Source: a virus (Duplodnaviria; Caudoviricetes). Taken from it: a stretch of DNA of 34,116 nt. The DNA lies in IMG/VR virus record IMGVR_UViG_3300020003_000009, positions 1-34,116 of that record; one strand, given 5' to 3'. The position numbers and the translations under genes were made by a program. The notes beneath the pieces were generated by a model. The model saw nothing but the letters and a program-made list of their open reading frames with translations, was not told the origin of the DNA and did not search any database. Positions 1,479 through 28,434 of this stretch are shown here, in pieces. Numbering within the stretch: position 1 is the stretch's first letter; every line of letters begins with the position of its first letter.

Positions 1479-1489
1479 CGGTAGGACTA

Positions 1490-1543: not shown

Positions 1544-1575
1544 CCCGAATGGAGGGCAAGATGAAAGGACGAACA

Positions 1576-1836
1576 ATGCCAGCAGATGCACCCAAAAAGC
1601 GTCGGGCTTCCGGCCCCCGTACTCAGCGCCCGATTTTCGCCGTGGTCCGGTACACGGATCAGGACGGTTCGACGGTCCAGCTTGAGCAGTCCAGGCTTTC
1701 GATCCAGATCGAGCGGGACAGCGGCAAGTTGGTTGAAATGCTGACGGGTGGCGGTGACTTCACAGGGGCCGCAGTGGTCAAGGTGCAGTTGCCAGCCCCG
1801 ACGCCTCGTGCGAAGCCTGAGCAGCTTCCAGCTTAG
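1576..1836 (+). CDS. Hypothetical 86-aa protein with basic N-terminus
   Basis: ATG at 1576 preceded by AAAGGACGAACA; visibly GC3-rich codons; flanked by two hairpins. Confidence 0.75.
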   Translation: MPADAPKKRRASGPRTQRPIFAVVRYTDQDGSTVQLEQSRLSIQIERDSGKLVEMLTGGGDFTGAAVVKVQLPAPTPRAKPEQLPA

Positions 1837-1859
1837 TCTGGAGCCTGTTACTAAGCATC

Positions 1860-1893: not shown

Positions 1894-1928
1894 GTCAGTT
1901 GGAACAACAAACGCCTTGGAGAGTTGTC

Positions 1929-3655: not shown

Positions 3656-3656
3656 C

Positions 3657-7659: not shown

Positions 7660-7719
7660 CAACAGGTGTTGCACCCCCGCGCCCGAAGTGCGATAAGGCG
7701 CGGGAGATTGCGGGGGTTT
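7660..7719 (+). promoter_or_regulatory. Leader of the HNH gene: palindromic site, putative promoter and RBS-sequestering hairpin
   Basis: CAACAGGTGTTG at 7660-7671; TTGCAC-N17-GATAAG with upstream TG; ACCCCCGC pairs with GCGGGGGT just before ATG 7720. Confidence 0.55.
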
Positions 7720-8181
7720 ATGAAAGAGATACAACTGACTAGAGGCTATGTTGCTCTTGTCGATGACGAGGACTACGAACTTGTGTCACAATACAACTGG
7801 TCTGTTAGTATAAAGAACCACACGTGTTACGCTCGCAGTCGTCTTGGCAAGGCTGACAACCCTGATACGCTGTTGCACAGGTTCCTACTAAATGCTCCTG
7901 CTGGAGTTGAGGTAGACCACAAAGATGGTAACGGTTTGAATTGTCAAAGGTCTAACATACGTTTGGCAACGTCAAAACAGAATAACTGCAACAAGTGGGT
8001 GCAGGGTGAGGGCTATCGCGGCGTTACACTACGTCCGAATGGTCGTTACCAAGCACGCATAAGAGACGACGAGCGCAGAATTGTTATTGGTACCTTTGAT
8101 ACAGACCTAGAAGCTGCAAGAGCATATGATGAAGCTGCCAGGAAGTATCACGGAGAGTTTGCAATGTTGAACTTTAACTAA
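7720..8181 (+). CDS. HNH endonuclease with C-terminal AP2 DNA-binding domain (free-standing homing endonuclease type)
   Basis: ALVDDEDY, LHRFLL, VDHKDGNGLNCQRSNIR (HNH), then YRGV...YQARI...IGTFDTDLEAARAYDEAARKYHGEFA (AP2). Confidence 0.93.
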   Translation: MKEIQLTRGYVALVDDEDYELVSQYNWSVSIKNHTCYARSRLGKADNPDTLLHRFLLNAPAGVEVDHKDGNGLNCQRSNIRLATSKQNNCNKWVQGEGYRGVTLRPNGRYQARIRDDERRIVIGTFDTDLEAARAYDEAARKYHGEFAMLNFN

Positions 8182-8191
8182 GGATAAGCCA

Positions 8192-8353
8192 ATGCCTAAA
8201 GCCAAGACGCCAGAGCAGCTAGAGAAGGCGCTTCAGGACAACCTAGACCAGTTTCCTGAAGTCACTGCTGATGATCCGTACCTATCGGATGCTAAAGCGT
8301 TCCTTCAACAAGCTATTGCTTGCTTAGGGAAGCAGATCAGAACTAATGTCTAG
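8192..8353 (+). CDS. Hypothetical 53-aa protein absent from the ORF track
   Basis: AAGGA RBS, then MPKAKTPEQLEKALQDNLDQFPEVTADDPYLSDAKAFLQQAIACLGKQIRTNV*; overlaps the next start. Confidence 0.7.
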   Translation: MPKAKTPEQLEKALQDNLDQFPEVTADDPYLSDAKAFLQQAIACLGKQIRTNV

Positions 8354-13746: not shown

Positions 13747-15214
13747 CTCGTCTCCCCTTGTCGTACTTCACAACCCTGCCGTTCTTCAGTTTGGCTGTGA
13801 TAATACCAGCATCATCGACACTTACATCAGCTACGTGTGGTAGTGCTCTGAGCCTTGTAACACGGATGTTGTTCGGATCAGCAGAGGGACGAACACTTGC
13901 GTAAGCTTCTGGAGAGTCCACTCGACGCTTATAGTCTTGTGCTTCCTTCGATCCCCATGCACCACGCGCCTTTGGTCCTGCATTGTATTCTAACACAGGG
14001 TCTTGGCCGCGCTTGATGCTGTCACTCAGATGTATAGCTGCACTCTCAGCAGCAGCTTGAGGACTAGACCAAGGATCAATCTTCCACCGCTTGATGAAGT
14101 GGTCACGCGTTCCTGGAGTGAACTGATACACAGTGCGAGCACCCTTCGGTGATACACTTCTAGGACCAGTAGCATTGGTACGTTCACCAAACACACGGAT
14201 GCGCTTCATCAATCCTTGTGGTAGACCGTACTTCCTTTCTAGTCTGTTCTCGATAGCGTCATAGCCAGCATCGCGGTAATCAGTGAGATCACCACGGATC
14301 GGTTCAGCGGCTGATGTAGCTGGTGCAGCGCCGCCCTGTGCACCAGCATTAGGGCTTGGTGAAGGCGCCATTCGCCTAAACACTCTGCCAGTCTTAGGAT
14401 CAATGCCAGCAGCCATTGCCTCTGCTTGTGCTTGAGCAAGCGCACCAGCACCAGCTTTAGAAGTCCACTTAAGCCCCATCGACACTCCAGAAGGATTGAA
14501 GATTTGTTCAACAGTTACGCCACCGTTGTTCTTTTGGTTAATCTCTGCAACGGTAGTGTCACGAAGATACCGATCTTCAGGAGTGTCCTCTGTGTAAGCA
14601 TCAATCTCGTCGCTTACATTCATTCCCTTCACAAGCTCTGGCAACTTACCAGTGACAGGATCACGTATCAGATGTTGCTTGGCTTCGTCGGAGAGAGTAG
14701 TGCCAGTCTCACCAAGTGTCTTGAAGCTGGTAGCAAACTTGTCGAGCGTCTCAGCACGCTTCATACCAAGATTGTACACGTTGCCAACCTGTTGCTGCAA
14801 CGGATTGCGAACGATCCTGCTCTCACCCGTTACAGGATCAGTTTCTACAGTCTCAAGACCACCAATACCTTCCTGAGTATACTGAAGGTTGCGATCACCT
14901 ATATCAGCTTCTCTTTCAGCGAAGAGATCACGCTTCTGTGCGTCGATCTGCAAATCCTGTGCGCGCTTAAGCATTTGGGCGTATCCCTCCTGCTCATTTC
15001 TCTTCTCATTGCGTAAAGCCCAAGCATTAGCTGCTGCTAAAGCGGCACTAGAGCCTTGGCTCTGATCCGCAGCAGTGCTTTGCAAATACCCTGCATACCC
15101 TGGAGTGAAAACTCCATACTGCTGCACTTCTGGAGTAGGAATGGTCGTAGTCTGACGCTTGTTCCTAGCCCTTAGAGCAACGCTCTCCCTCGGCTTACCT
15201 GCTGTGTCGGCCAT
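13739..15214 (-). CDS. Internal virion protein with lytic transglycosylase (SLT-like) domain
   Basis: ERKYGLPQGLM...GERTN...SPKGARTVYQFTPGT...YNAGP SLT motifs in the C-terminal third. Confidence 0.8.
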   Translation of the reverse strand: MADTAGKPRESVALRARNKRQTTTIPTPEVQQYGVFTPGYAGYLQSTAADQSQGSSAALAAANAWALRNEKRNEQEGYAQMLKRAQDLQIDAQKRDLFAEREADIGDRNLQYTQEGIGGLETVETDPVTGESRIVRNPLQQQVGNVYNLGMKRAETLDKFATSFKTLGETGTTLSDEAKQHLIRDPVTGKLPELVKGMNVSDEIDAYTEDTPEDRYLRDTTVAEINQKNNGGVTVEQIFNPSGVSMGLKWTSKAGAGALAQAQAEAMAAGIDPKTGRVFRRMAPSPSPNAGAQGGAAPATSAAEPIRGDLTDYRDAGYDAIENRLERKYGLPQGLMKRIRVFGERTNATGPRSVSPKGARTVYQFTPGTRDHFIKRWKIDPWSSPQAAAESAAIHLSDSIKRGQDPVLEYNAGPKARGAWGSKEAQDYKRRVDSPEAYASVRPSADPNNIRVTRLRALPHVADVSVDDAGIITAKLKNGRVVKYDKGRRVG

Positions 15215-15217
15215 AAC

Positions 15218-16207
15218 TTAGCCTCCGGTTGGTGGTTTAGCGAAGCTACTAGCAGCATTGCCTAGACCAGTAAGTAGCTTACTAGTTGGAGACGCAACAC
15301 GTGTTTTGGCGAAAGCATCGTAGCCTTGGCGCAAACCAGTTCCAGCATTAGCCAAAGTCTGTCCAGCTTGTGAGCCTCCACCCATAGCAAGATCGAGCTT
15401 GCTCATGTCAAAGTCCATCTGCTTCCCTAGGTTCTCTCTGCCAAGTTGCTCGTACGTAGAAGGAGCAAACTGTGCATCGTAGAAGTTGCTACCAATGCCG
15501 TGCATCTGTCCATACACACCGTAGTTCTGCTGATTGCGTCCTTGGTTTATCCCTTCCGCAAACTCAAGACCTTCGAGGCCAGGCGTACCCAAACCTGCTT
15601 GTGCACGAACCCTATCACGCGCAAGAGAAGTAAGAGCGTCACCAACTGCACTAGATCCAGTACGGAGTTGCATCGTTCTCGCAGCGCGTTCAGCATCGTC
15701 ATATCCTGCATTGAGTTGGCCTGTACGGCTAGCCATCAGTTGACCAGCAACGGCAGCGGGATCAACCATCCCAATGCCTCGTCGAGCCGCGTCAATATCA
15801 GTTAATGCTCTATCAGCCCGACCACTCGCCATTTGGCGCATTCGTTCTGCGTCGAGCAGTCCTTGGCGTCGCACTCCTTGATCGACTGTGTTACGTAACA
15901 GTTCCTCTCCGTACGAAGCACCTTGTATGCCTTGCTGCTCTGCTCCTAGAGCATACTCGTACTTGCCCGTAGCAGGGTTGAAGCGAGTAAACCCACCACT
16001 AGGATCGTAGACATCGGACGAAGTAGTAGCTGCTTGCTTCGCTAACTGACTGATGTAGTCAGCGATGCCAGACTGCTTATCAGCTAGCTTCTTCTGATCC
16101 TCATAAGCCTTCTTAGCAAGCTTGTTAGTTTTCTTGTCACCAAGGAAGCCAGCAATAGAGCCAGCTGCTCCTAATCCAGCACCGATTGCTGCTAATGGAA
16201 GTGGCAT
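15218..16207 (-). CDS. Internal virion / ejection (pilot-type) protein
   Basis: Hydrophobic Gly/Ala N-terminus PLAAIGAGLGAAGSIAGFLG; Q/G/A-rich body; synteny. Confidence 0.7.
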   Translation of the reverse strand: MPLPLAAIGAGLGAAGSIAGFLGDKKTNKLAKKAYEDQKKLADKQSGIADYISQLAKQAATTSSDVYDPSGGFTRFNPATGKYEYALGAEQQGIQGASYGEELLRNTVDQGVRRQGLLDAERMRQMASGRADRALTDIDAARRGIGMVDPAAVAGQLMASRTGQLNAGYDDAERAARTMQLRTGSSAVGDALTSLARDRVRAQAGLGTPGLEGLEFAEGINQGRNQQNYGVYGQMHGIGSNFYDAQFAPSTYEQLGRENLGKQMDFDMSKLDLAMGGGSQAGQTLANAGTGLRQGYDAFAKTRVASPTSKLLTGLGNAASSFAKPPTGG

Positions 16208-17121
16208 CAGAACGCTCCTTGAGAGCCTAGCCCTCTGCTCTGTGTGTTAAGTCTCTTACGTTCCCCTAGTGCGGTAGCTACATCAGTATCACGCAGATTG
16301 AGTGCTCCCTGTGCACCACCAACAGCACCGCCGATCTTCCCAAAGTCAAAGAAGTTCTTTCCGCCTATAGTGCTGCGAAGAGCACCTTCTGCACCTGAAG
16401 TGGTGCGGCCTAGATAGTCAGTCCTGTCTCCGATGTACGGATCAAGGGAGAAGGTAGTATCGCCTGGAGTAAAGGATTGGTAAGCGTCCCAAGCTTTCGT
16501 GTCAATGTCGTTAAGACCACCGCGCCATTGATCTATAAGGCCACTACCAAGATTACCAAGTTCGGACCTTGCTGTTCCCGCAGCGGTATTGATCGCTTGC
16601 TGTCCAGCATTGTATCCTACATCGTTGTAGATACCTCGTGCCTTACCAGCTTCTAGCTTTCTTTGTGCGTCAGTCTGCTGGCCCTGTATGATGTTGTTGA
16701 TGGCATCATCTAGCATGGTGCTTGGTAAGGCTGCTCGATCAGCACTCTGCCCAAACTTGTTCTCGAAGCTGCTTGTGAACTCGCGCCTCTTGTCCTCGTT
16801 GACAGCTTTCACAACATTTGTTGCGATGTCGTCACCGAACACTGAGTAAGGGTCTTTACTCAACATAGCAGTTTCTGCTGCTCTATCGAACTCTGCGTTG
16901 ATCTGATCCATGTAGAGTGCAGGATTAAGCCCTTGTGCGCGCAAGTTGAGCGTTGCTCTATTGATAGCAGCACTGCGAGCCATCGCCATCTTAGCAGGAT
17001 CAATGATCTCTGGCGGAGGCGTTACCGCTGCGGGTGCCGCAGGAGCAGGAGTTGCAGGCTGCAAGGCTTCCCGCGCCAACCTGCTTTGCTCTGCATTTCT
17101 CATTACATCAGCAAAGTTCAT
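16207..17121 (-). CDS. Putative internal virion protein
   Basis: ATG at 17121 in a TGATG overlap with the upstream stop; A/G/Q-rich; synteny. Confidence 0.6.
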   Translation of the reverse strand: MNFADVMRNAEQSRLAREALQPATPAPAAPAAVTPPPEIIDPAKMAMARSAAINRATLNLRAQGLNPALYMDQINAEFDRAAETAMLSKDPYSVFGDDIATNVVKAVNEDKRREFTSSFENKFGQSADRAALPSTMLDDAINNIIQGQQTDAQRKLEAGKARGIYNDVGYNAGQQAINTAAGTARSELGNLGSGLIDQWRGGLNDIDTKAWDAYQSFTPGDTTFSLDPYIGDRTDYLGRTTSGAEGALRSTIGGKNFFDFGKIGGAVGGAQGALNLRDTDVATALGERKRLNTQSRGLGSQGAF

Positions 17122-18593
17122 CACAGTTGTCCTATTGCGATCCAAGTGTAAGTGGCAGTACCACCACCACCATTGATGACATTCATACCGGAGACAGTAG
17201 GCGTTCCGTAGTTGTGGACATCACTATCATCAGACACAACACTCAACCCACCGTTAGCCATTGCAAACGGAGCAATAGAGTAAGGCGTTGGGAAGGTAAC
17301 TACACCTAGACCATCAGGACCAAGTGTTCCGATACCAGCCTGTATCATCATGGTCTGTCCGGTGCTGAAACCAAGACGTATATCTAGTACGTTAGCAGCA
17401 AAGGACGCTGTTATACCAGCAACTGCACCAGTGAGTGAGCGTGCTGCTGCTGCATCAGCTAAAGTCAGCATAGAGCGGCCAAACGCAGTTGTAGTCAGTG
17501 CAGCTATAGCGGCTAAGTCTGCGTCAAACTGCTGCACATCGAGGTTGGTTCTGGCAGTAGCAGCATCACTAGCGCCAGTACCACCATTAGCGATGGCAAG
17601 ATCAGCACCAGCCCAATTATCATTGTTGATCGTGTTCAGTGTGGCAATGGTGCCAAGGCCCAAGTTAGTCCGAGCAGCAGCAGCAGTGGCCGCTCCAGTA
17701 CCACCTTGTGTGATTGGAAGCGGGTTAGCAAGGTTGCCTGTGATCGTACCGCTAACAAGCAGATTACCACTTATAGAGGTAGTGCCAGTGACATTCAGGC
17801 CGCTATGGATTGTAGTCAGACCTGATACCGTATCTATCTGAAGCCCATTGATGGTGGCAGATGATCCAAGTCTAACTGTGTTAGGGCTAGTATCCTCTGC
17901 AATAACGAAGTCATTGACACCAGTGAGGTCCATTCTGATTGGACCCAATGTTCTGAGGCCAGTTGGGCCTATCCCTAGAGCAGCGATACCGTTCCTACCA
18001 AAGATAAGCTCATCAGTGGTGTGAATGTACTGTATGTAGCCAGCGAGAGCATTCTCTGGATCACCGAACGCTATCGTGCCTGTTGAGTTGTTGGGAGTGA
18101 GTATACTTATTCCTGCTGGTTGATTTGAGGAGATCACTAAATCATTGGCATCAAGATGAGGAGAAGCACCGCTAGGTCCAGCAATGATATTGATCTGTGA
18201 GAACTTCTTCAGCGGTGCTACAGTGTTGAAGCTCGTTCCATTGTAGATTGCCTTAACAGGTTCACCAGCTAGGAAGTCTCCCATTGCAACAGGGATGCCT
18301 AACACGAGTAGTGGCTTCGCTGCTTGGCCATCTACTGCAATAGTAGTTGGACCAGTAGGAGAAAGATTAGGGATGAACACCACAGTGAGGCCATTAGCTA
18401 GCACTCGATCCGGTGTATAGTCCAATGTGATTGCATTAGCAGTCCCACCCACTACAGGGAGAGGTACGTCACCGAAGGTAGCCTCTAGCAAGCTGTCCAG
18501 GAGTGTCCAGTTGTACCATTCATCCCCATGCCAGTTGTCGGAGTTGAAGTCGATGAGCTTAAAGCCCTTGTACGTGTATCCGTAAATGCTCAT
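17121..18593 (-). CDS. Tail fibre/spike protein
   Basis: Two GGTGA..A..ARTNL repeats; C-terminal MIQAG...VTFPTPYS...WIAIG fibre-tip domain; follows the nozzle gene. Confidence 0.75.
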   Translation of the reverse strand: MSIYGYTYKGFKLIDFNSDNWHGDEWYNWTLLDSLLEATFGDVPLPVVGGTANAITLDYTPDRVLANGLTVVFIPNLSPTGPTTIAVDGQAAKPLLVLGIPVAMGDFLAGEPVKAIYNGTSFNTVAPLKKFSQINIIAGPSGASPHLDANDLVISSNQPAGISILTPNNSTGTIAFGDPENALAGYIQYIHTTDELIFGRNGIAALGIGPTGLRTLGPIRMDLTGVNDFVIAEDTSPNTVRLGSSATINGLQIDTVSGLTTIHSGLNVTGTTSISGNLLVSGTITGNLANPLPITQGGTGAATAAAARTNLGLGTIATLNTINNDNWAGADLAIANGGTGASDAATARTNLDVQQFDADLAAIAALTTTAFGRSMLTLADAAAARSLTGAVAGITASFAANVLDIRLGFSTGQTMMIQAGIGTLGPDGLGVVTFPTPYSIAPFAMANGGLSVVSDDSDVHNYGTPTVSGMNVINGGGGTATYTWIAIGQL

Positions 18594-20257
18594 CTGTTGA
18601 TCCCCCCAAGGAGATAGTGCAGGGAGATCGACACGAAGCTTAAGCCTGCATCGCTCAATCCACTGAACCTAAGTTTCGCTATCTGGAACTTGCAAGGCCA
18701 GACGTAATGCCACTTACGAGCAGTGTTCCGTCCACCGCCATAAGGTTGTGGTCCTCCACCAAAGTGTCCTTGTCCCCCTCCACTAAACTCAGTTGTGAGT
18801 GCGGGACTGTCAACTCCTGCGTTGGTGTAGAAGTTATCAACGTACATTCGAGTGTCGAACTCGGACAACCCGCGTGTATCAAAAGATATATGTTTAGAAG
18901 TCTTAGACTTTGTTCGCTGTCCGAAGTCCAACCACGGCAACTCCCAATCGAAGGGTATAGGAGCGCCATTGTCTGTGTAGATTGGGTCATCGTCACTTCC
19001 TAACACCCAAATCTTGGCATCCTTATCACCAAAGAATACGCGTCCGGTGAGTGAACGTACTCCACAAGTGAAGTTCCAGTTGCCGTATAGGCTCCAAGCA
19101 TCTTGTTGCAGTGATGGGCGATAACCGTAAACGAATGCTTTAGTTTCGGTTGTCTCAGCGACTGTCTCTGCGTTGGGGACAAACAACATGAATTGCCCGT
19201 TGGCTCTGTTGTAGACAGAAAAGACATGGTTCTCCATCGCTTCAAAGCTAAGAGGCTTCAGTGCTGCTTTTATCTCTGGATCAATAAGATCGGAAACCCG
19301 TTCCGGCTTGAAACTCGTTGACAGTGCAGTACGCTTAATACTAGGCACTCCTTCAAGGTCCATAAACAGCCCATCGTCACCGTAAGCAATCCCACTGCGA
19401 TGAGAGATTGAGCCATAACCGGATACTCCGTCCTCAAAGTTGGGAGTATGATTGCCATTCTCATCGTAATCCCCCAACTGTCCAAACAGCAGACCTTCTG
19501 CGAACATCACAATGAGCTTACCACGGAAGGTAAGCAGACCGCGAATGGTTGTTGCACCTGACAGGATAGAGCCAACATCAAGCCTTGTGCCATCATTAGG
19601 CTCGTCGTCACCGTACCATGTACCATGAGCATCACGAGCACTAATGTGAACACGATCAGGCTCTAGCGGATCACCAGCCATTACTAAGTAGCGGCTAATA
19701 GAAGTGACGTACTTACAGATAGGCACATTGAGGTTGCTGTTAGTAGCTGCGTCTTGTAAGTATTCCACTCTGAACTGATTGTCTATGTCCAGAGGCTTCT
19801 CTTGACCATTGCAGATCACCAAGTGGTCATTGAACTCTGCAAATGACACGAAGTCAAGTGAGTGCCAACCAGTGACTATAGGACTTCCAGGAGGATGAGG
19901 GAGTGTGTTGGCAATAGCTTCGTTCCAGATCACTGATACTAAGCCGTTGCCAAGGATTTTGCAGATCTCTCCGTTGCTGAACACAACGATGAGTGCTGAG
20001 TTGAAGTAGTAAGCATCAACTGCATACGAGGGAGTGGAGAGATAGGGGAGGCAGTTAGCAAACAACCTGTAGCCTTGCCTCACCGATACGCTTCCATCGC
20101 TGTCAGCATAGACATTGTAAGCTATTCTGGCGTACTTGTGGCTTAGGTTCATATCATCGTCAAGCACATTCCATCCACCACTGAACTCACGCAGCGTTAC
20201 TGGCCGCAAGTTCTGTGATATGCGGAATTGCTTAGGCATGATCTTCTCTAAGCGCAT
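18590..20257 (-). CDS. Tail nozzle / tubular protein B (P22 gp10 / T7 gp12-like)
   Basis: 555 aa, beta-rich; N-terminal FSGGWN and VSVRQG motif; follows the adaptor gene. Confidence 0.7.
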   Translation of the reverse strand: MRLEKIMPKQFRISQNLRPVTLREFSGGWNVLDDDMNLSHKYARIAYNVYADSDGSVSVRQGYRLFANCLPYLSTPSYAVDAYYFNSALIVVFSNGEICKILGNGLVSVIWNEAIANTLPHPPGSPIVTGWHSLDFVSFAEFNDHLVICNGQEKPLDIDNQFRVEYLQDAATNSNLNVPICKYVTSISRYLVMAGDPLEPDRVHISARDAHGTWYGDDEPNDGTRLDVGSILSGATTIRGLLTFRGKLIVMFAEGLLFGQLGDYDENGNHTPNFEDGVSGYGSISHRSGIAYGDDGLFMDLEGVPSIKRTALSTSFKPERVSDLIDPEIKAALKPLSFEAMENHVFSVYNRANGQFMLFVPNAETVAETTETKAFVYGYRPSLQQDAWSLYGNWNFTCGVRSLTGRVFFGDKDAKIWVLGSDDDPIYTDNGAPIPFDWELPWLDFGQRTKSKTSKHISFDTRGLSEFDTRMYVDNFYTNAGVDSPALTTEFSGGGQGHFGGGPQPYGGGRNTARKWHYVWPCKFQIAKLRFSGLSDAGLSFVSISLHYLLGGINR

Positions 20258-20258
20258 A

Positions 20259-20903
20259 TCAACTCCACTGTGTAGGGATTTGTTCGCTCCGTGGGTTCAG
20301 TAACACCACGTTGTCGAACTCTGAGTCCTCAAGAGCTTTCATTCTGCTATCAAACAACCCTTGCATCTTGGCAGCGGCGCCAGCATTACTTGCATCATCA
20401 ACTAGGTAATCCCAGGCGGCATAGTAACACAGCGCAAGGCTGTCGAACGGCACTATATCTGTCATAATGAACTCAGTAGCAGGGCGTTCGCGTCCAACCA
20501 CCACAATGTTGCCTGTTGATCCTAGCGGATAGACTGTGAACAGCGTCGCGTCTGCTGTAGGTTCGAGAAATCTTGGAGTCGTTCCATCAACCAAACCCAA
20601 CAGGTTGTAGCTGAGGGGCATGGTGGGGATTGGGTGTTGACTATTCGCTCTAAAGACATCGCTGACATCTTTCCACTCTTTAATGAGGCTGAACGGGAGC
20701 ACAGGTTTCCCCGTAATCCCGTCCAGCATCCTTGCCTCGCGTCGAACAAATGAGGGCCAAAACTTCGCTGTGAAGCAATGGTCAAAAGCGTGTTGCAGCT
20801 TTTGCATTATGACATCTTGAGCATACACTTGAGTGTTGACACCAGCAGCTTGATAAAGCATACGTTCTGTGTCAACAGTCAGTTGCATTAGTGTCTTGAG
20901 CAT
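20259..20903 (-). CDS. Head-tail adaptor (tail tubular protein A-like)
   Basis: 214 aa, helical termini, position between head genes and nozzle. Confidence 0.6.
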   Translation of the reverse strand: MLKTLMQLTVDTERMLYQAAGVNTQVYAQDVIMQKLQHAFDHCFTAKFWPSFVRREARMLDGITGKPVLPFSLIKEWKDVSDVFRANSQHPIPTMPLSYNLLGLVDGTTPRFLEPTADATLFTVYPLGSTGNIVVVGRERPATEFIMTDIVPFDSLALCYYAAWDYLVDDASNAGAAAKMQGLFDSRMKALEDSEFDNVVLLNPRSEQIPTQWS

Positions 20904-20913
20904 AACGACCCCT

Positions 20914-20987
20914 CAAAGAAAGCGGGAGTGGTTTCGACGCAAGGACGAATATACGCTTAGACCACTCCCTACCGTCACGAATGACGG
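20914..20987 (-). terminator. Double-hairpin element, probably a terminator or attenuator after the head genes; possible sRNA
   Basis: On the - strand: CCGUCA-UUCG-UGACGG, then a GGGAGUGGU/ACCACUCCC stem followed by GCUUUCUUU. Confidence 0.7.
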
Positions 20988-20989
20988 GT

Positions 20990-21622
20990 TTAGGCCGCTT
21001 GCATACCGTGCAATCCCCCGTTGCCATTGGCATTGAGGATGTTGTACGGCTGGAACTTAGCCATAATCCGGTTACTGCCATTGAGTGCAGTAGTCGGGGC
21101 GTAAGTACCACGCGGATCGCCAGTGGTTGAGGTCTGCGGATCAACAAGCGAACCGGGAACCAAAGCTCCAGGCGCTGCTTCAACACCATTAGCTACTTCT
21201 TCCATCACCGCAGCCATGCGATAAGGAAGTCCTAGCAATGCACCCCAACCAACAATCACTGCACCAGTGAAGGGATCAATAGCGTCAATCCACTTGAACG
21301 CCTTTTTGCCCGCTGCTGATGCACCAATTGTTTCGGTCACGCCTTGACCAAGGTAGTCTTTGCCGCGCACAGTAACAGAACCGCCAGCACCGTTCGTAAC
21401 ATTGCGTCCGAACGGAGCATCAGCAGTATCCGCACCGAACACCGTCAACGGAGTGCCAGCTACGCCAGCAACACTGTTGAGAATGTTCGTCGCCACAGCA
21501 GCGACAGGGGTTAAGAAATCCACAACATACGCAGCACCGTGGATTACATCGGCTGCATATCCCATCGCAGGGACGTAGGCATTGTACCTACGGTTGCGAA
21601 ACGATGCTACTCTCTGTACCAT
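20990..21622 (-). CDS. Putative head decoration / minor capsid protein
   Basis: 210 aa, G/A/V/T-rich, lies upstream of the head-gene terminator so probably high copy; AAGGAG RBS. Confidence 0.55.
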   Translation of the reverse strand: MVQRVASFRNRRYNAYVPAMGYAADVIHGAAYVVDFLTPVAAVATNILNSVAGVAGTPLTVFGADTADAPFGRNVTNGAGGSVTVRGKDYLGQGVTETIGASAAGKKAFKWIDAIDPFTGAVIVGWGALLGLPYRMAAVMEEVANGVEAAPGALVPGSLVDPQTSTTGDPRGTYAPTTALNGSNRIMAKFQPYNILNANGNGGLHGMQAA

Positions 21623-21990
21623 TATTCGCTCCTTACTTTCGTTTTGGCGGGACGGTGTTCTACTTCTTCATCTTCAACCAACACGTTGAGGTCAACCTCT
21701 CCTTGTGGGTTGTTGGCGAAGTCGTAGGGATCACCGCCAATGTCGATAACATCACCAGTTTCCATATCAACCATTCGAGGCTTAAGATGGTAGCCCATAG
21801 ACTTAAGTTGCTCGAACGATGTTACACGAATGCTGTGGCCCTGCGGAAAGTAGATCATGTAGCAGTCACGTTCTTCCGTGACGGTTTCCTGTTGGAGTGA
21901 CTTCTCTTCAGGGTCCATCCAACACTTTTGGTAAGTGACCATTTCCTTCCGCGGGCCTTTAACAGCGTATCGGGCGCGTATTCTTGCCAT
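21622..21990 (-). CDS. Hypothetical protein downstream of the major capsid gene
   Basis: GGAAGGACGAAACA leader, TAATG coupling to the next gene. Confidence 0.75.
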   Translation of the reverse strand: MARIRARYAVKGPRKEMVTYQKCWMDPEEKSLQQETVTEERDCYMIYFPQGHSIRVTSFEQLKSMGYHLKPRMVDMETGDVIDIGGDPYDFANNPQGEVDLNVLVEDEEVEHRPAKTKVRSE

Positions 21991-22011
21991 TGTTTCGTCC
22001 TTCCAATAGCG

Positions 22012-22959
22012 TTAGTTGTTGAGCACACCGTGCGTACGATATGCTTTCCATAGAGTGAACTGGCCCTGCCATACAACTCTTGAACCATGAGCGTCAGTAT
22101 CCCAAGGCGCAGAGAGGGACTTCACCTTCATGTTCACGTGCTTAAGGATTGTAGTCCTCAAGTACTTGCTGTTGATGAAGTAAGCCTTATTCACCGGACA
22201 ATCCTCATCATACAAGATGGGAATGTTCTGGTGACTAATGCCAGTGAAGCCAAGATCCATCATGCGCTTACCATTGCTGGTATCGCTCAAGTTGAACACA
22301 ACCTTCTCCCGAACCGCAGCACGGTACAGGCGATAGATGTTGCGACCAACAAGGATAAGATCAGGCTTGTCACTCTTCAGCGTAAGATCGAGCAAGATGT
22401 CGTCAAACGCTTCCTCAATGTTGCTCGCGTTCAATGCACCAGCGAACTGATACGAACTCGTGCGCCATTGTGGTTCAGTAGCACGATTGATACCACCGAG
22501 CACACCTGTCGTGGGATCATCAGGGATAAGCGAAGCCAAACCCAACGGATCAGTACCACCGCCCGCTGCGTATAGATATTCGCTGAACTTTTCCTTGATG
22601 CTCTCTTCCAGGACATCCATCTTGGCTTTCATAAGCTTGAAGATGGCTGCTTCACCACGGTTCTCATCTTCTTCCTGATCGGAAATGATGACAGTACCAG
22701 CCACACGTGACCAGTAGTACCGTGCCGTAGTGAACTCGTTGGTCTGTGCCACTGGTAGCTGATCGTAGTATTCGTACGATGCTACGTTGGGGTTGCGACC
22801 AGTAGTGAGAGGATTGGTGATGTCGTAACCACCATCCTCGTAATCGACGCGATCGTTGGCGAAAGCCCATGCCATTAGCGCATTGCTGCGTACTGACGCC
22901 ATGATTAGCTTCCGCCTCGACTTAGTAAGCGTCGAGTTAAGTACGGTTGCTAGTGCCAC
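22012..22959 (-). CDS. Major capsid protein
   Basis: 315 aa after the scaffold; HK97-type features (PLGLASLI, YFINSKYL, WQGQF); AGGAG RBS. Confidence 0.85.
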   Translation of the reverse strand: MALATVLNSTLTKSRRKLIMASVRSNALMAWAFANDRVDYEDGGYDITNPLTTGRNPNVASYEYYDQLPVAQTNEFTTARYYWSRVAGTVIISDQEEDENRGEAAIFKLMKAKMDVLEESIKEKFSEYLYAAGGGTDPLGLASLIPDDPTTGVLGGINRATEPQWRTSSYQFAGALNASNIEEAFDDILLDLTLKSDKPDLILVGRNIYRLYRAAVREKVVFNLSDTSNGKRMMDLGFTGISHQNIPILYDEDCPVNKAYFINSKYLRTTILKHVNMKVKSLSAPWDTDAHGSRVVWQGQFTLWKAYRTHGVLNN

Positions 22960-22968
22960 TTCATTCTC

Positions 22969-23976
22969 CTAGATGTTAAGGCCACTTTCTCTCATCGCTT
23001 GTCGCACGATGTCTCCAGTGTCCATATCGTCGGATGCGAGAGTGGTTACTTCAGCAGAATTGATTGGTGCATTCGCCGCGTTGTTTCCTGCGGGTAAGGG
23101 TGCTCTATTCTGATGTTGTTGACCACCTGCATTTGCTGGATCAGCGCCCACCACTCCAACATTCTGTTCGAGAGTGAGGGACCAGTCATAACCCTTCTCA
23201 ATGAAGGCGTCTCTGACTTGGTAATACGCGTCCTCTAAATCGAGGCCGGGGTGATCTCGCAAGACAGTCGCAAGTAGCTTATCATGCGGTCTAGCGTCGG
23301 GGTGTCTACCAAAGAAAGCATTTGCTTCGTTAGCAGCTTCGTCAAGTATTTCCTCGTCGCTTTGGTACTCATTGTTGTCTTGTTGCGGTAAGCGTTCGTC
23401 AATCATGCGCTGTATTGCGGCCATGTCAACACCGCTTCCGATGTCGTCAATACTATAGCCTTGTGCCGCCGCTTCTGCAAGCAATTTCTTCAACGTCCCC
23501 TGGGGGTCTCTTTGAAGATCCACAATGATACGTGCTCCCAACGCAAGTTGATCGGGCGCAATACCATGTAATGACTGCACAGACTGCTGAACAGCAGCTA
23601 ATTCGTTCTGCACCTGCGCTAGTTGGTTGCGTGTATTGTTAAGCTCTTGTTCCTTTGTGTGTAGCTGCGCTCGTGCGACCTCACGCTGTTCATAGAACCT
23701 ACGTTCCGGCCCGCCCTTGACTACTGTTCCATCTTGTAGCTTTAAGTCCTTGGGATGAGGAGCACTTGGTGCTGGCGGCGCTCCTTCTTGCTTAGGCTTC
23801 GGTTGTGTGCCACTGTCGCCATCACCGCTTGGGCGATCTTGAGGCTGCTGCTGTGTACCATCTTCGCCCTCTTTGTTTTCTGTTGGCGTAGTCTCAGCTT
23901 TGCCATCCTGTGCCTCAATCGCAATGTCGATGTTGCGTTCAATGTTGTCGGTGATAGTGTTTTCATCGGGAAGCAT
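22969..23976 (-). CDS. Capsid scaffolding protein
   Basis: Acidic disordered N-terminus, coiled-coil core, short C-terminal helix; between portal and MCP. Confidence 0.75.
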   Translation of the reverse strand: MLPDENTITDNIERNIDIAIEAQDGKAETTPTENKEGEDGTQQQPQDRPSGDGDSGTQPKPKQEGAPPAPSAPHPKDLKLQDGTVVKGGPERRFYEQREVARAQLHTKEQELNNTRNQLAQVQNELAAVQQSVQSLHGIAPDQLALGARIIVDLQRDPQGTLKKLLAEAAAQGYSIDDIGSGVDMAAIQRMIDERLPQQDNNEYQSDEEILDEAANEANAFFGRHPDARPHDKLLATVLRDHPGLDLEDAYYQVRDAFIEKGYDWSLTLEQNVGVVGADPANAGGQQHQNRAPLPAGNNAANAPINSAEVTTLASDDMDTGDIVRQAMRESGLNI

Positions 23977-23994
23977 TGTATTCGTCCTTCTCTC

Positions 23995-26169
23995 TTACGA
24001 GGGTTGTAGTCCACCCAACTGTGCCTCAATCTGTTGTAATGCTTCGCTTGGAGGCACACCAGCTTGCACCATTTCCTGCAACTTAGCTTGCGCTTGCGGC
24101 GGGAGTTTAGCTATCTTCATCTTTAGTTGTTGCAGCATTGCTTCGTCTGTTAACGGAGGTCCAGGAGGTTGTTGTCCCGGCGCACCTTGCCCCTGTGCAC
24201 CGGGACCACCGCCAGCTTTCTGAAGTCCCTGCATCATCGTTGTTTCGACGCGCTCCCAATCTTCATCAGCGACAGTGAACTCATCGAACGCACGTTCAAA
24301 CATCTTAAGCATCAACACAACAACAGCAGGAGAAGCAGAAGCAAACTGCCCCATCACCTGTCCCATTTCAATTGCTTGTTGCTTTTTCTCACGGCTATTT
24401 GGTTTCGCACTAGAGCCACTCTCCACTCTAACTGCAAACTCCTTCTCAAACTCTCTAGGAGAGTTAACCTTCTGCCAAGTTTTCGCAAGTTCCGGTCCTA
24501 TGAACGGAGAGACATCCTCTGCATCCCACTCTGTGCAACACAGCAAGCAGATGTTCCAACTGATGTCAGCGATGAAGTCCTCAATCAAGTCCACTCTTTC
24601 CTCAACACGGATGTCTGTGTTCTTGTTGTAAGTCTCCACTGCTTTGTTCGTGGTGTTGGTCTTGAACTGAGCACCACGTTGTGCTTCATTGATACCAGTG
24701 ATCCTGTTGATTGCTTGGAACTTGCTATCAGGAGAGAAGAACTCAGGAATGTTCAATCCCGGTGGAATGAAGCTGAAGATGTGATCTGCAAGCTTACTAC
24801 CTTCTGGAAGGTCAATACCACGCGCAGTGCCATCATCACCTTTCAGTACCTTCTCAACGTCCTCTTGGTTGATTGCGTTCTTGTTATACAGCACGTTGCG
24901 ACGCGCCCACTGTCTGCCGCGCCTGACTTCATCTGCAATCTCGTTGATCGCATCCTGTTGATCTAAGTAGTACGTGACTTCACCCTTCGGTGCGTGAGAG
25001 TTAGTGCTCTCATGGAACCACAAGCGGAAGTACGGGAAGAAGCGAGGCAATTTGTGTGGATCATCCCACACCCACAGCGGCCAAGTCCAGTGGTTGTCAG
25101 CATACATCAGGACTCGTCTTGTGGCTTTGTCCCAGATGTACCAAACCTTCGTGTGCTTTGCTTTGTCGAAGGCAACTGTGTTGTCGTATCCGTAAGTGGC
25201 GGCGTTTGCGTCCTCAGCAGAGGAGAAGAGTGAAAACGTGTTGACCTGCTCTTCAACATCACTAGTGCTGCCAGTTCCGGCGTCAAGAATGTGCGTTGGC
25301 GAGTATACCGACCGCGTTTCTTTACCATGTTTGCTTCCATATACTGCGTTGATGTAACTCGTTGGTAGATAGTCCCACTCCATCATCCACATAGCATCAC
25401 TGCCATCAGGCTCAGTAGAGCTAGGATCAACTACAACACGATCAGGTAGAAGGTTCTTCATGAAGGGGCCAGAAGGATTGAGCAAGGCAATCTTCTCTTC
25501 GAGTGCCATCAACTCACCTTCAAGCTTCACTACTTCCTTCTTGTCCGTTGCATTCTCTAAGTCCTGCGAGATACGCTGCAACTCTGCAATAGCAGCTTCA
25601 TTCCCATCCTGCTTCAGTGTAAAGCCGATCTTGATGAAGCCAGAGTTGGTTAGCAGTGTCGTGAGAACGGTGCGGCGTAGCTTCGGCTTTGCGTTAAGGC
25701 CGGGGAGCGACTTCTTCGCAAGCAGCGTGTTGATAAGTCGTTCGATCCCTTTGGCACGTTCAAGGTTAGCATCAATATCTGAAGTGATAGTGATGGTTGG
25801 GTTCTTTGCATACAGCATTGGAACCATGATAGAGCAATTAGAGAACACCACGTTCTCAGTCTCTCTCCACTCGCCACTAAGTCTTGTTCCCGGCTTGTTA
25901 CCTGCGCGTTCTTCGCTTGAAGTGCGATGGATGAGTTGGTCGTTGTCGTAGTAGCGGATCGCTTCACTCCAGGCATCTTCTGATCCCTTACGGTTGCGTA
26001 GTCCCTGCTCCTTACGACTGTTCCACACCAAGCCAACTGCTTTGGTTACAGGTATCTTAGTGTCACCGACCATCTGATAGACAGGCTCAACTACAGCCTT
26101 CTTCTTGCCGCCGCGACCAGCACCGACCCGCTCTAGGTTCTTTTCAATCGGATCATATTCTTCAGCCAT
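23995..26169 (-). CDS. Portal protein
   Basis: 724 aa immediately after TerL; ENVVFSN, VVVDP, QQDAINE, RITGINEAQRG segments; Q-rich tail. Confidence 0.85.
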   Translation of the reverse strand: MAEEYDPIEKNLERVGAGRGGKKKAVVEPVYQMVGDTKIPVTKAVGLVWNSRKEQGLRNRKGSEDAWSEAIRYYDNDQLIHRTSSEERAGNKPGTRLSGEWRETENVVFSNCSIMVPMLYAKNPTITITSDIDANLERAKGIERLINTLLAKKSLPGLNAKPKLRRTVLTTLLTNSGFIKIGFTLKQDGNEAAIAELQRISQDLENATDKKEVVKLEGELMALEEKIALLNPSGPFMKNLLPDRVVVDPSSTEPDGSDAMWMMEWDYLPTSYINAVYGSKHGKETRSVYSPTHILDAGTGSTSDVEEQVNTFSLFSSAEDANAATYGYDNTVAFDKAKHTKVWYIWDKATRRVLMYADNHWTWPLWVWDDPHKLPRFFPYFRLWFHESTNSHAPKGEVTYYLDQQDAINEIADEVRRGRQWARRNVLYNKNAINQEDVEKVLKGDDGTARGIDLPEGSKLADHIFSFIPPGLNIPEFFSPDSKFQAINRITGINEAQRGAQFKTNTTNKAVETYNKNTDIRVEERVDLIEDFIADISWNICLLCCTEWDAEDVSPFIGPELAKTWQKVNSPREFEKEFAVRVESGSSAKPNSREKKQQAIEMGQVMGQFASASPAVVVLMLKMFERAFDEFTVADEDWERVETTMMQGLQKAGGGPGAQGQGAPGQQPPGPPLTDEAMLQQLKMKIAKLPPQAQAKLQEMVQAGVPPSEALQQIEAQLGGLQPS

Positions 26170-27688
26170 AACGGTGCTTCCTATTATCAGGAGTAGTGTT
26201 ATCGTTCACTTCACCCCAACGCATATAGCTAGGCTTAGAGTTGAACACTCGACGCGCATACAACGCTAAACGAGGTCGATTGGTGAAGAAGTACTTAGTC
26301 ATGTCCATCGCGTGATCGTTCTTGTCGTTGGGCACATCCTGGACTTGTCCTGCGGTGTCCTTCTTCCAGTAGTAGTCAACGATCTCTCGATCCCACCAAT
26401 CCAAGTGATTAGAGATAAAGAACCGTGGTGATCCTAACTCTCCTGTCATTGGATGAGGATGCTTCAGATCAATCTCCAAATAGCTCTGTACCTTAGCCAA
26501 TCCACTCACAATGTTGTTGTTCGCTCTAGTGCAGCCTACTTGGAGTTCCCTAAGCATCCCGGCGACTGTAACACCGACCGTTTGAGTACTACCTGGACCT
26601 CTTCTGAAGATAGCCGGGTCTGCGAGTACAGGGCGGAAACTTGCATCGAAGCCGATCTCTCTGGCAATTTCTCTACGATGATCCTTGATGCGGGTGGCGA
26701 TCTTTTCTGGACTAAGTTCTGCTTCATAGAAACCTCCCATCAAGAACGCGTTGCCGTAGCTGTCGCTAAAGCCAATGCCGTAACAAGCAGGAACCGCAAT
26801 GCCATGATCGTACGCTTCGATAATCTCGGGCCTAAGACCTTCTCTAACCTGCCTAGCAAAGTAATCAATGATTTGATCTTGAGGGAGTAGATGCACCATC
26901 TGATTATATTGCGGATAAACCAAGCCCTCAAAAGCACCCCACCCTCCCATCAGGTAGCGTTCGCGCATTTGTCCTTTGTATGCACTCTCCAGCCCCTGAA
27001 TGTAATCTTCTGGAAGGTTCTCTGCATTTGTGTAAGTTGATCCCTCGAACAACTCGATGATTGGCTCCTTAGTGTCTCTGTCAACCAGCAAGTCAGGATT
27101 GTACAAGCCAATGCGATGATCCAGCACAGGCTTGACAAGCTTACGGTATACCCAATTACGTGTTGGGTTGCACAGCACAAGCATCCAACGTGGTCCAGTG
27201 CGAGGCATAGTAGGATCGTCGCCATCATAGATAGCATTGCCACGCAAGCGGCCTAACAGATCGAGAAAGTCCTTCTCACTAATCTCAGGATCTTCTATCT
27301 GATCTACGACAATCCAATCATAAGTGGCACTGAGTAGGTTGGAACTGGAGCCTTCACCGCTCTTACCATGCTGTTGCACGTAGCGGAAGTTAACAACCGT
27401 TCCGTTCTCTAGCTCAATCAGGTTCTCAACAGATAAGGCTCTACGCTTGATCCAACTGTCAGGACACCAATCTAGGAACTCTTTCCGAATGGTGTCATTG
27501 AGTTTAGGATAAGTACTACGAGCAATAAGACCATTAGACCCAGGATAAGCCTTAGCGAGCTTGAGTGCTTTGATGACACCTGCTGTCGTCTTTCCATTGG
27601 CGAAACCGCCGCCAAAGATTTGCACCTTCGCACGCGAGTTCTGAAACTGGTCCTGTAACGAACCTCTTATCTGTTTGTACTGCTTCAC
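26162..27688 (-). CDS. terL: Terminase large subunit
   Basis: Q motif, Walker A GGFANGKT, Walker B variant WIVVDQIE, coupling motif CNP, nuclease AYDHG / ADP / NDHAMD. Confidence 0.92.
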   Translation of the reverse strand: MKQYKQIRGSLQDQFQNSRAKVQIFGGGFANGKTTAGVIKALKLAKAYPGSNGLIARSTYPKLNDTIRKEFLDWCPDSWIKRRALSVENLIELENGTVVNFRYVQQHGKSGEGSSSNLLSATYDWIVVDQIEDPEISEKDFLDLLGRLRGNAIYDGDDPTMPRTGPRWMLVLCNPTRNWVYRKLVKPVLDHRIGLYNPDLLVDRDTKEPIIELFEGSTYTNAENLPEDYIQGLESAYKGQMRERYLMGGWGAFEGLVYPQYNQMVHLLPQDQIIDYFARQVREGLRPEIIEAYDHGIAVPACYGIGFSDSYGNAFLMGGFYEAELSPEKIATRIKDHRREIAREIGFDASFRPVLADPAIFRRGPGSTQTVGVTVAGMLRELQVGCTRANNNIVSGLAKVQSYLEIDLKHPHPMTGELGSPRFFISNHLDWWDREIVDYYWKKDTAGQVQDVPNDKNDHAMDMTKYFFTNRPRLALYARRVFNSKPSYMRWGEVNDNTTPDNRKHRYG

Positions 27689-27897
27689 TTAGCGACCCAA
27701 CCAGTGTTGCCACTTCCACTCTCTTTAACATAGAACGAAGTGAGAGCACCACCATCGGAGCGATGATAGTGAGCACCTACGTTAGCAGTGATAACACCGT
27801 TAGGTGATCCTGTGCCTCTGTACACAACACCACCAAGTGCAGGGTTGTCGATCAGTGCACCGCCACCGTTACCGCTCAAGTCACGATAAAGAACCAT
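27685..27897 (-). CDS. 70-aa Gly-rich putative virion protein
   Basis: AGGAGG RBS; GTGSPNGVITANVG..Y.RSDGG...YVKESGSGNTGWVAK resembles a module seen at the ends of fibre/spike proteins. Confidence 0.7.
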   Translation of the reverse strand: MVLYRDLSGNGGGALIDNPALGGVVYRGTGSPNGVITANVGAHYHRSDGGALTSFYVKESGSGNTGWVAK

Positions 27898-27906
27898 CTT
27901 ACCCTC

Positions 27907-28434
27907 CTATATCTCGACTGTTGCGTTGAAAGCTACTTGAGCATTGTCAAGCAACACGCTGTCACTGATGCGACGAATTTGCAGTTGCATCTGAGCGTTA
28001 GCAACTCCTGGAGCTGTTCGAACGACTGCCCACGAGCGCGTTGTACTTAGAGGCAACCATGATCCGAAGGTGCCACTAAAGAAGCTGCCACTAGTAACAG
28101 TCGCTAACGCAGCGTAATCACCTGCTGCACCACTTAGTAACCATGCCCAAGGCGTAACACCTGATCCAGATGTCATGCCACTTGCGTTCAAAGCAAAGTT
28201 AGCGTTAGCATCAGCAGGGTCGATAGCGATGGCATCACAAGACACATTATATATATCTACAAGCCCTGTCGGTGTTCCTGCTGAACGGCCAAGGAAGTCT
28301 AAGAAGCCTAACACTCCTGATGCTGGAGCACCACCTAAGCCATAGAAAGCTCCTGGGAAGATTGAGGTTGCAGGGATGCTAAACTCAGCAGCTATCTGAG
28401 TAATTGTGATCGGCGGTGCTAATGGCAGTGTCAC
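27907..28434 (-). CDS. Putative fibre-tip / receptor-binding protein
   Basis: N-terminal TLPLAPPITITQIAAEF...LGFLDFLG motif typical of adhesins that follow fibres carrying an S74 chaperone. Confidence 0.55.
   Translation of the reverse strand: MTLPLAPPITITQIAAEFSIPATSIFPGAFYGLGGAPASGVLGFLDFLGRSAGTPTGLVDIYNVSCDAIAIDPADANANFALNASGMTSGSGVTPWAWLLSGAAGDYAALATVTSGSFFSGTFGSWLPLSTTRSWAVVRTAPGVANAQMQLQIRRISDSVLLDNAQVAFNATVEI

What the first reader, a model, noticed from the sequence alone, without database searches (positions are those of the whole stretch)
20914..20987. Late-operon hairpin displays a loop antisense to the ribosome-binding sites of head genes (candidate 3'-UTR sRNA)
Seen: the - strand RNA folds as GGGAGUGGU...GCGUA[UAUUCGUCCU]UGCGU...ACCACUCCC followed by a U-rich tail. 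The inner stem needs G-U pairs, so it forms only on this strand. UAUUCGUCCUU (20951-20941) is perfectly complementary over 11 nt to the scaffold leader AAGGACGAAUA (23989-23979). It matches 9 nt of the leaders of gene 21990 and of the early gene at 1576, and pairs with one bulge to AAGGA(G)CGAAUA of the 210-aa gene. The MCP leader (AGGAGAAUGAA) does not share the motif. A UUCG-loop hairpin lies just 5'. Established: antisense and 3'-UTR-derived sRNAs use loop seeds to block SD sequences. Inference: accumulating head-gene mRNA ends could repress scaffold and accessory genes while sparing MCP, a feedback on capsid stoichiometry that I do not recognise as described.
Basis: partly seen in the sequence, partly recalled or inferred. 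Interest (0 to 1): 0.8.

Follow-up and report, generated by a model that had tools for sequence, protein, structure and literature searches.

The report
Phage RNA loop addressing head-assembly leaders
A large family of uncultured bacterial viruses keeps, between its head and tail genes, a predicted RNA hairpin whose loop is the complement of a short sequence at the translation starts of the two genes flanking the capsid gene (and, in about half the genomes checked, of an early gene on the other strand); loop and sites have changed together across the family, so the RNA likely pairs with those messages and likely turns their translation down while sparing the capsid gene.

Summary
The hairpin (20969-20924, - strand) sits between the head module and the tail-adaptor gene. 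In 102 of 108 distinct spacers from relatives a long hairpin stands there. Its stems are G-U-polarised to the late strand (76 G-U vs 3 A-C). The loop matches its own genome's leaders of the putative scaffold and of the 122-aa gene after the capsid gene far better than other genomes' leaders (permutation p=5e-5 in each of two clades; independent pairs 21:7 for scaffold, only 19:11 for the 122-aa gene). It also matches the early gene at 1576 (8 of 16 lineages >=7 nt, p=2e-5). That gene lies on the opposite strand, so pairing there would be in trans. Portal, capsid, 210-aa and tail leaders show no such signal. So the 210-aa target, the UUCG loop and the U-tail terminator are not supported family-wide. 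No Rfam match and no paper found. No RNA was observed, so repression and the form of the RNA are inferred. The scan has noted similar designs on other phage DNA (unchecked notes).

The parts
20924..20969 (-). main hairpin: 9-bp lower stem, internal loop, 5-bp upper stem with two G-U pairs, 10-nt pyrimidine-rich loop (20951-20942); 11-nt seed 20951-20941
   Evidence: fold; loop unpaired probability about 1.0 in a 190-nt context; compensatory changes among 6 near kin; a positional equivalent in 102 of 108 spacers
20972..20987 (-). small 5' hairpin just after the 210-aa stop codon; mainly in the window's own clade
   Evidence: 2 pairs with change on both sides; 13 of 88 loop-bearing spacers have a 5' structure of -5 kcal/mol or better
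20914..20923 (-). U-rich tail, not conserved
   Evidence: >=5 U in 8 nt in 17 of 88 relatives
23979..23989 (-). address site 1: 11-nt complement of the loop, covering the SD of the putative scaffold gene
   Evidence: co-variation
21994..22002 (-). address site 2: 9-nt complement of the loop, covering the SD of the 122-aa gene
   Evidence: co-variation (independent-pair test not significant)
1565..1573 (+). address site 3: 9-nt complement of the loop at the start of the early 86-aa gene after SSB, on the opposite strand
   Evidence: co-variation
22969..23976 (-). 335-aa putative scaffolding protein (predicted target)
   Evidence: named from its position between portal and major capsid genes; no family match, so inferred
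21622..21990 (-). 122-aa conserved protein of unknown function after the capsid gene (predicted target)
   Evidence: 143 homologues, 264 cluster representatives; no family or clear fold match
1576..1836 (+). 86-aa conserved early protein of unknown function after SSB (predicted target)
   Evidence: homologues after SSB in all 10 long relatives mapped; no family match
22012..22959 (-). major capsid protein (not addressed)
   Evidence: phrog_9953, E 2e-54; no cognate pairing
20990..21622 (-). 210-aa beta-rich protein, likely a virion decoration protein; its stop codon precedes the hairpin. Its leader pairs with a bulge in this clade only
   Evidence: model pLDDT 89; best VIA Z 5.9, a common jelly-roll level; no co-variation
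20259..20903 (-). 214-aa likely head-to-tail adaptor, first gene after the hairpin
   Evidence: Pfam SU10_adaptor E 7e-4, below the curated cut-off

Best explanation
The predicted hairpin at the end of the head-gene module is likely an antisense regulator: its exposed loop is complementary to a genome-specific 'address' word at the translation starts of the putative scaffold gene, the 122-aa gene and often an early gene after SSB, and it would pair there and likely block ribosome loading while leaving the capsid gene free. Shown: the hairpin, its strand, its fixed place, the complementarity, the joint change of loop and sites, and the absence of that signal at five other late leaders. Inferred: once late transcription runs, head-module RNA ending in or carrying this hairpin would accumulate, either as a nuclease-stalled mRNA 3' end or as a processed piece. 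The loop would nucleate on the address, the weak upper stem would open to give 8-12 bp, and 30S binding would be blocked. The two head-module sites (3.0 and 1.0 kb upstream) could be reached in cis or in trans; the early gene only in trans. The likely result is fewer copies of scaffold and helper proteins per capsid protein, and a late shut-down of the early gene.
For: (1) Place and fold are kept while stem sequence turns over: 102 of 108 spacers, median core 12 bp; the 31-hairpin alignment has 43% column identity. (2) Strand-blind best stems hold 76 G-U and 3 A-C oppositions. (3) Cognate vs permuted leaders, all 102 hairpins: scaffold z=-10.4 (n=95), 122-aa z=-11.0 (n=101); no positive signal for portal, capsid, 210-aa, adaptor or nozzle. 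After dereplication, p=5e-5 on WC run for both genes in each of two clades (n=34 and 36; n=24 and 26); among the five controls the only value under 0.05 is 0.043, for the 210-aa gene. (4) Independent pairs on the capsid tree: scaffold 21 better vs 7 worse, p=0.006. (5) Many different address words occur. Scaffold and 122-aa leaders share a 7.9-nt word on average where the loop exists (n=82) and 4.7 nt where it is lost (n=13). (6) In a screen of 64 ORF clusters across up to 12 long records, the top three are exactly scaffold, the 122-aa gene and the early gene. Early gene: p=2e-5 over 16 lineages, p=0.009 in the 6 added later. (7) A held-out AT-rich clade repeats the pattern (6 spacers). A hairpin predicted from shared leader words in L110/L112 was found ~730 nt further on. 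(8) In many clade B genomes the 122-aa address lies between the SD and the AUG or covers the AUG (median run -8 to 0), which fits occlusion rather than recruitment.
Against: No transcript seen: the one RNA run has no contig over the hairpin, which proves nothing either way. The independent-pair test for the 122-aa gene is not significant (19:11, p=0.10), and permutations do not fully remove relatedness. G-U vs A-C inside the loop-target duplexes is mixed: 11:2 in the held-out clade, 11:8 in clade A (non-cognate 421:489), 21:37 in clade B (non-cognate 704:763). So the pairing polarity is not shown by the duplexes themselves. The early site is missing or weak in about half the lineages (8 of 16 under 7 nt by the automatic start rule, which mis-picked two starts). 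One clade of 12 plus L151 has a short-loop hairpin with no complement, and L030, L034, L374 and L375 have no spacer, so the element is dispensable. Duplexes are short (7-12 bp). The target proteins' roles are unproven.
Confidence: 0.68

Rival explanations
1. Cis-only fold-back: the hairpin acts only on its own polycistronic mRNA (icaR-like), closing the scaffold and 122-aa starts once transcription reaches it, as a timer. No diffusible RNA exists.
For: Both strongest targets lie 3.0 and 1.0 kb upstream on the same strand. No conserved terminator or promoter signal. For icaR, ectopic 3'-UTR did not act in trans (PMC3868564, passage).
Against: The opposite-strand early gene co-varies with the loop (p=2e-5, n=16; p=0.009 in the 6 later genomes), which needs trans action. 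Cis action on the head genes can still coexist.
Confidence: 0.12
2. The pairing is real but its effect is not simple ribosome blocking: it directs nuclease cleavage, or protects or activates the addressed messages.
For: Nothing here measures the sign of the effect. icaR pairing also creates an RNase III substrate (PMC3868564, abstract).
Against: Sites overlap the SD or the AUG, and the leaders are mostly open (mean unpaired 0.75 and 0.68), so there is no inhibitory structure to relieve. The address-to-AUG spacing varies from about 7 nt to 0, which is unlike a surrogate anti-SD.
Confidence: 0.1
3. Same-sense decoy or protein site: the address is bound by a protein (for example Csr/Rsm-like, as the words contain GGA), and a + strand hairpin displays a copy of it.
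For: A same-sense copy would co-vary too. The duplex wobble test is inconclusive and in clade B leans to A-C. The + strand also folds in the window.
Against: Stems tolerate G-U only on the late strand (76:3), and the late strand is the more stable one in 80 of 102. The word changes freely between lineages, which a fixed host protein would not follow.
Confidence: 0.05
4. Ordinary terminator or stability hairpin with a generic anti-SD-like loop; the matches reflect each genome's SD habits.
For: The position after the head genes is typical for a terminator (own knowledge). Loops are C/U-rich. One clade keeps a hairpin without the loop.
Against: Five other late leaders of the same genomes show no cognate signal. 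The match extends beyond the SD core. The U-tail is present in only 17 of 88. A stability or step-down role may be a second function.
Confidence: 0.05

Closest known systems
C4 antisense RNA of phages P1/P7 (PMC5320573, passages; PMC12197685, passages)
   Same: Phage RNA whose loops pair with the phage's own mRNA at ribosome-binding sites; loop sequence sets the specificity.
   Different: C4 is a three-stem, RNase P-processed 77-nt RNA controlling antirepressor synthesis. Here there is one hairpin in the late operon, the targets are predicted assembly genes plus an early gene, and there is no Rfam match.
Staphylococcus aureus icaR 3'-UTR anti-SD motif and RNAIII 3' domain (PMC3868564, abstract and passages; PMC4615179, passage)
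   Same: A C/U-rich motif at the 3' end of a coding RNA pairs with SD regions and blocks initiation (icaR on its own mRNA, RNAIII on several mRNAs).
   Different: Those are bacterial and use a fixed UCCC-type motif. Here the loop is lineage-specific and tracks its sites, and it picks genes out of its own operon while skipping the capsid gene between them.
Cuckoo (RSs0680/ar14) RNAs of Alphaproteobacteria (PMC4615179, passages)
   Same: Variable stems carrying anti-SD-like loops.
   Different: Cuckoo RNAs have 2-4 hairpins with an invariant CCUCCUCCC. Here there is one hairpin with a variable loop (CCUCC in 39 of 88).
P22 scaffolding-protein translational autoregulation (bioRxiv 10.1101/2022.12.13.520362, passages)
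   Same: Scaffold synthesis is limited after transcription; the scaffold is recycled.
   Different: P22 uses the protein's own N-terminus. Here an RNA loop is the predicted repressor and it addresses further genes.
CisR (PMC13250501, abstract); VpdS and PreS (PMC12197685, passages)
   Same: sRNA control of a phage life cycle; CisR is 3'-UTR-derived and represses a phage mRNA.
   Different: CisR is host-encoded and Hfq-assisted; VpdS and PreS act through Hfq, largely on host functions. None is a late-operon hairpin co-evolving with the phage's own leaders.

Membership tests
C4 antisense RNA | match to an Rfam c4-type model | tested here: not met
   No Rfam hit in the window, in 20800-21100 at E<=10 or in 10 related loci.
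C4 antisense RNA | three stem-loops, RNase P processing to ~77 nt | tested here: not met
   One conserved hairpin, with a second only in 13 of 88. Processing itself is not testable here.
C4 antisense RNA | loop complementary to the phage's own RBS regions, specificity changing with the loop | tested here: met
   By sequence comparison only.
Cuckoo / RSs0680 RNAs | 2-4 adjacent hairpins each with CCUCCUCCC | tested here: not met
   Single loop-bearing hairpin with a variable loop; CCUCC in 39 of 88.
Intrinsic terminator | stable G+C-rich stem | tested here: met
   Median core 12 bp, -21.6 kcal/mol.
Intrinsic terminator | U-tract right after the stem | tested here: not met
   5 U of 8 in the window, but only 17 of 88 relatives reach 5; not listed by the terminator scan, whose loop limit is 8.
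3'-UTR-derived sRNA | discrete RNA from an internal promoter or by processing, with a defined 3' end | not testable with these tools
   Only assembled contigs of one RNA run were available, none over the hairpin; no clear synonymous-site peak before it.
3'-UTR-derived sRNA | Hfq or ProQ dependence | not testable with these tools
   Host unknown; no data.
icaR-type 3'-UTR/5'-UTR pairing | anti-SD motif and target on the same mRNA | tested here: inconclusive
   Same strand and 1-3 kb apart for two sites, but transcript limits are unknown and the third site is on the other strand.
Csr/Rsm-sponging RNAs | GGA shown in hairpin loops of the transcribed strand | tested here: not met
   The GGA-bearing strand is the disfavoured one (G-U 76 vs A-C 3); the family's features are recalled, not from a call.

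The most novel reading that the evidence does not exclude
A lytic-type phage family runs a private RNA addressing system. One late-operon hairpin carries a re-writable loop, and any gene that acquires the matching word at its start joins the regulon. These genes include the scaffold, a helper gene, an early gene on the other strand, and genes newly inserted in the head module. This sets capsid-protein stoichiometry and closes the early phase without a protein repressor, and it may be one case of a wider, undescribed class of phage morphogenesis riboregulators.
Probability: 0.5. Interest if true: 0.87.

Novelty: new variant of a known kind. Interest (0 to 1): 0.77.

Why it matters
How a phage makes hundreds of capsid subunits but fewer scaffolds and helpers from one transcript is known in few cases, such as protein autoregulation in P22. 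This would be an RNA solution, with dozens of natural compensatory loop/site pairs that make it directly testable with reporters. It would add phage self-regulation of assembly to the short list of phage small-RNA functions, link the late head RNA to an early gene, and group three proteins of unknown or inferred function into one regulon. The natural orthogonal pairs could also serve as compact riboregulator parts.

Tried and rejected
Rfam: nothing. blastn of the spacer against cultured phages: nothing. Five distant annotated phages (capsid 27-30% identical: Mx8, BUCT555, ppBjS10J-1 and two spring isolates) show no comparable hairpin with a loop matching the scaffold leader. The 210-aa, portal, capsid, adaptor and nozzle leaders were rejected as family-wide targets. 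The duplex G-U/A-C polarity test was inconclusive. The clade split was mis-drawn (10 rows), so its larger set is a family-wide set of 36; the split was redone. The careful capsid tree did not finish and the quick tree was used; FastTree was used for pairs. Four-fold-site conservation gave no clear sign of a promoter before the hairpin or the scaffold gene. RNA run X1 (small share, contigs only) gave 5 pieces in 15000-28000 and 5 in 1-15000, none over the hairpin; this is no evidence either way. 122-aa protein: no PDB, Pfam, PHROG or Atlas assignment; best VIA Z 2.8 to the CarD N-terminal domain is too weak to use. 210-aa protein: no Foldseek hit, best VIA Z 5.9. 86-aa protein: nothing. The host was not determined; two MAG contigs carry relatives but may be mis-binned. 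Literature: ten searches found no description of this element. In PMC10690425 four supplementary files held none of six search terms, but its zip and PDF files could not be searched and may list this RNA.

Full report
Setting. The window is a 78%-complete virus record of a podovirus-like phage. Replication genes lie on the + strand; terminase, portal, capsid and tail genes lie on the - strand. The closest cultured phages share only about 30% capsid identity. The order on the - strand is portal, 335-aa putative scaffold, major capsid protein, 122-aa gene, 210-aa gene, an 86-nt spacer, a likely adaptor, and a 555-aa gene. The scaffold name rests on position alone; no family matched it.

Observation. 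The spacer folds as described: a small hairpin (20987-20972) and a main hairpin (20969-20924) with a 10-nt open loop. The loop's complement occurs three times outside the loop at 9 nt or more: at the starts of the scaffold (11 nt), 122-aa and early 86-aa genes, against 0.25 expected for the 9-mer (the model ignores SD enrichment). Among 33 window leaders the best five duplexes are scaffold, the gene at 3657, 122-aa, 86-aa and 210-aa; the capsid leader is far weaker. Rfam has no match.

Relatives. Six scans gave 292 loci (plus one locus). Of these and the window, 228 had the end of the 210-aa homologue with downstream DNA, and they collapse to 108 distinct spacers. A leader-blind search found a strong hairpin in 102 of 108. 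Of the six misses, L177 and L210 have loop hairpins with interrupted stems that the search missed, L110 and L112 have one ~730 nt further on, and L030 and L034 have no spacer. Thirteen hairpins (a clade of 12 and L151) have short loops with no complement. These 13 and the distant L292 were kept and left out, which used 88 loop-bearing rows. Stem sequence is not conserved. Among six near kin, 4 of 23 pairs change on both sides and 97.8% of cells pair. Strand-blind stems hold 76 G-U and 3 A-C oppositions, so the fold belongs to the late-sense strand.

Loop and leaders change together. The 18 nt at each apex were scored against the -20..+12 region of seven late genes. Over all hairpins, own-genome pairing beats permuted pairing for scaffold (z=-10.4, n=95) and the 122-aa gene (z=-11.0, n=101), and not for portal, capsid, 210-aa, adaptor or nozzle. 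After dereplication the result holds in each of two clades (p=5e-5 on WC run for both genes; 36 of 53 and 26 of 35 rows used). Among the five controls the only value under 0.05 is 0.043, for the 210-aa gene in one clade. Of 82 genomes with both leaders, 76 have 7 or more WC pairs with at least one and 55 with both; the capsid leader reaches 7 in 1 of 88 and the 210-aa leader in 3 of 88. On phylogenetically independent pairs the scaffold holds (21:7, p=0.006), the 122-aa gene is suggestive only (19:11, p=0.10), and the five controls lean the other way. Where the loop is lost, scaffold and 122-aa leaders no longer share a word (4.7 nt, n=13, vs 7.9 nt, n=82), though this is mostly one clade. A later-fetched AT-rich clade repeats the pattern: in its 6 spacers the 122-aa leader pairs best in 5 and nearly ties with the scaffold in the sixth; the scaffold site fails in L373. 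L374 and L375, two more distant loci of that scan, have no spacer, and L370 is too short to tell.

The early gene. Its homologue follows SSB in all ten long relatives mapped. In a screen of 64 ORF clusters (my count of the printed rows; many are spurious ORFs; near-duplicates and three other records were left out), the three best are scaffold, 122-aa and this gene (p=0.0002, 0.0002, 0.0014). With six further genomes and a loop-blind start rule, 8 of 16 lineages reach 7 nt against 7% of non-cognate pairs (p=2e-5; the six new ones alone p=0.009). The rule mis-picked two starts; with the homologous start L010 has 8 nt. The gene is on the strand opposite the hairpin in the window and in the long records checked, so pairing there cannot be in cis.

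What is not supported. The U-tail (17 of 88), the UUCG loop and the 5' hairpin (13 of 88) are local. The 210-aa target shows no co-variation. Wobble counts inside the duplexes are mixed (11:2, 11:8 and 21:37), so the case for antisense pairing over a same-sense decoy rests on the stem polarity. No RNA evidence was obtained.

Mechanism. Shown: the structure prediction, its strand and place, the complementarity and the co-variation. Inferred: late RNA carrying the hairpin accumulates, the loop nucleates on the address, and the weak upper stem opens. That bulged upper stems aid antisense pairing is my own recalled knowledge. The sites cover the SD or, for the 122-aa gene in clade B, the spacer and AUG, so repression of initiation is the simplest outcome. 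The scaffold is recycled in P22 (bioRxiv 10.1101/2022.12.13.520362, passage), so damping it while the capsid protein is made freely makes sense. Whether the 122-aa and 86-aa proteins share that logic is unknown. Whether the active form is an mRNA end or a processed sRNA is open.

Comparison. It works like C4 of P1/P7, the icaR 3'-UTR and RNAIII: loop-to-RBS pairing (passages or abstracts only). It fails the membership tests for C4, cuckoo RNAs and plain terminators. Ten literature searches found no description; the unread zip and PDF supplements of PMC10690425 may bear on this. The scan's own unchecked notes describe similar designs on other DNA. Look-ups by this window's capsid, 210-aa protein and spacer region found no look-alike, so those notes are probably on other families. 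I did not test them and do not count them as support.

Verdict. A real, family-wide, co-evolving loop/leader system; most likely a phage antisense riboregulator of head-assembly and early genes; function untested. New variant of a known kind; interest 0.77.

Noticed in passing
L110:2091-2872, L112; L032/L348:132-774: Genes inserted in the head module carry the same address word in their leaders as the scaffold and 122-aa genes, as if new genes join the regulon.
   Followed up: partly
L072, L267 vs L040, L110: With an inserted ORF, the hairpin stays just after the 210-aa stop in some genomes and just before the adaptor gene in others.
   Followed up: partly
window 3657-3670 and 4507-4527 (+): Two more early genes pair with the loop in the window (-13.1 kcal/mol with G-U pairs just after the start at 3657; -9.9 at the 4527 leader). 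Too few homologues to test.
   Followed up: no
window 1561-1576 (+): The early 86-aa gene has a second in-frame ATG five codons upstream with a stronger SD; the address would then lie in codons 2-5. The same two-start layout is in L003 and L113.
   Followed up: partly
window 21622-21990 (-): The 122-aa model's best, weak structural neighbours are CarD/CdnL/Mfd RNA-polymerase-interacting domains (Z 2.8 or less). A lead only.
   Followed up: partly
L029, L035, L041, L045, L053, L058, L074, L076, L247 spacers: The clade without the loop keeps a long, near-palindromic hairpin with a conserved UUAUAC/GUAUAAG-type apex and a strong SD for the adaptor gene; possibly a different element.
   Followed up: no
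clade B spacers, e.g. L068, L080, L264: An outer stem pairs the 210-aa stop region with the bases just before the adaptor AUG, which lacks a clear SD; a possible step-down from head to tail genes.
   Followed up: no
window 1899-2177 (+) and 7666-8181 (+): A small NikA-like (ribbon-helix-helix-type) gene, E 0.002, below the Pfam cut-off, conserved before the helicase; and a free-standing HNH endonuclease.
   Followed up: no
window 23995-23979 (-) and relatives: The scaffold address abuts or overlaps the portal stop codon in many genomes, so pairing could also break translational coupling.
   Followed up: no
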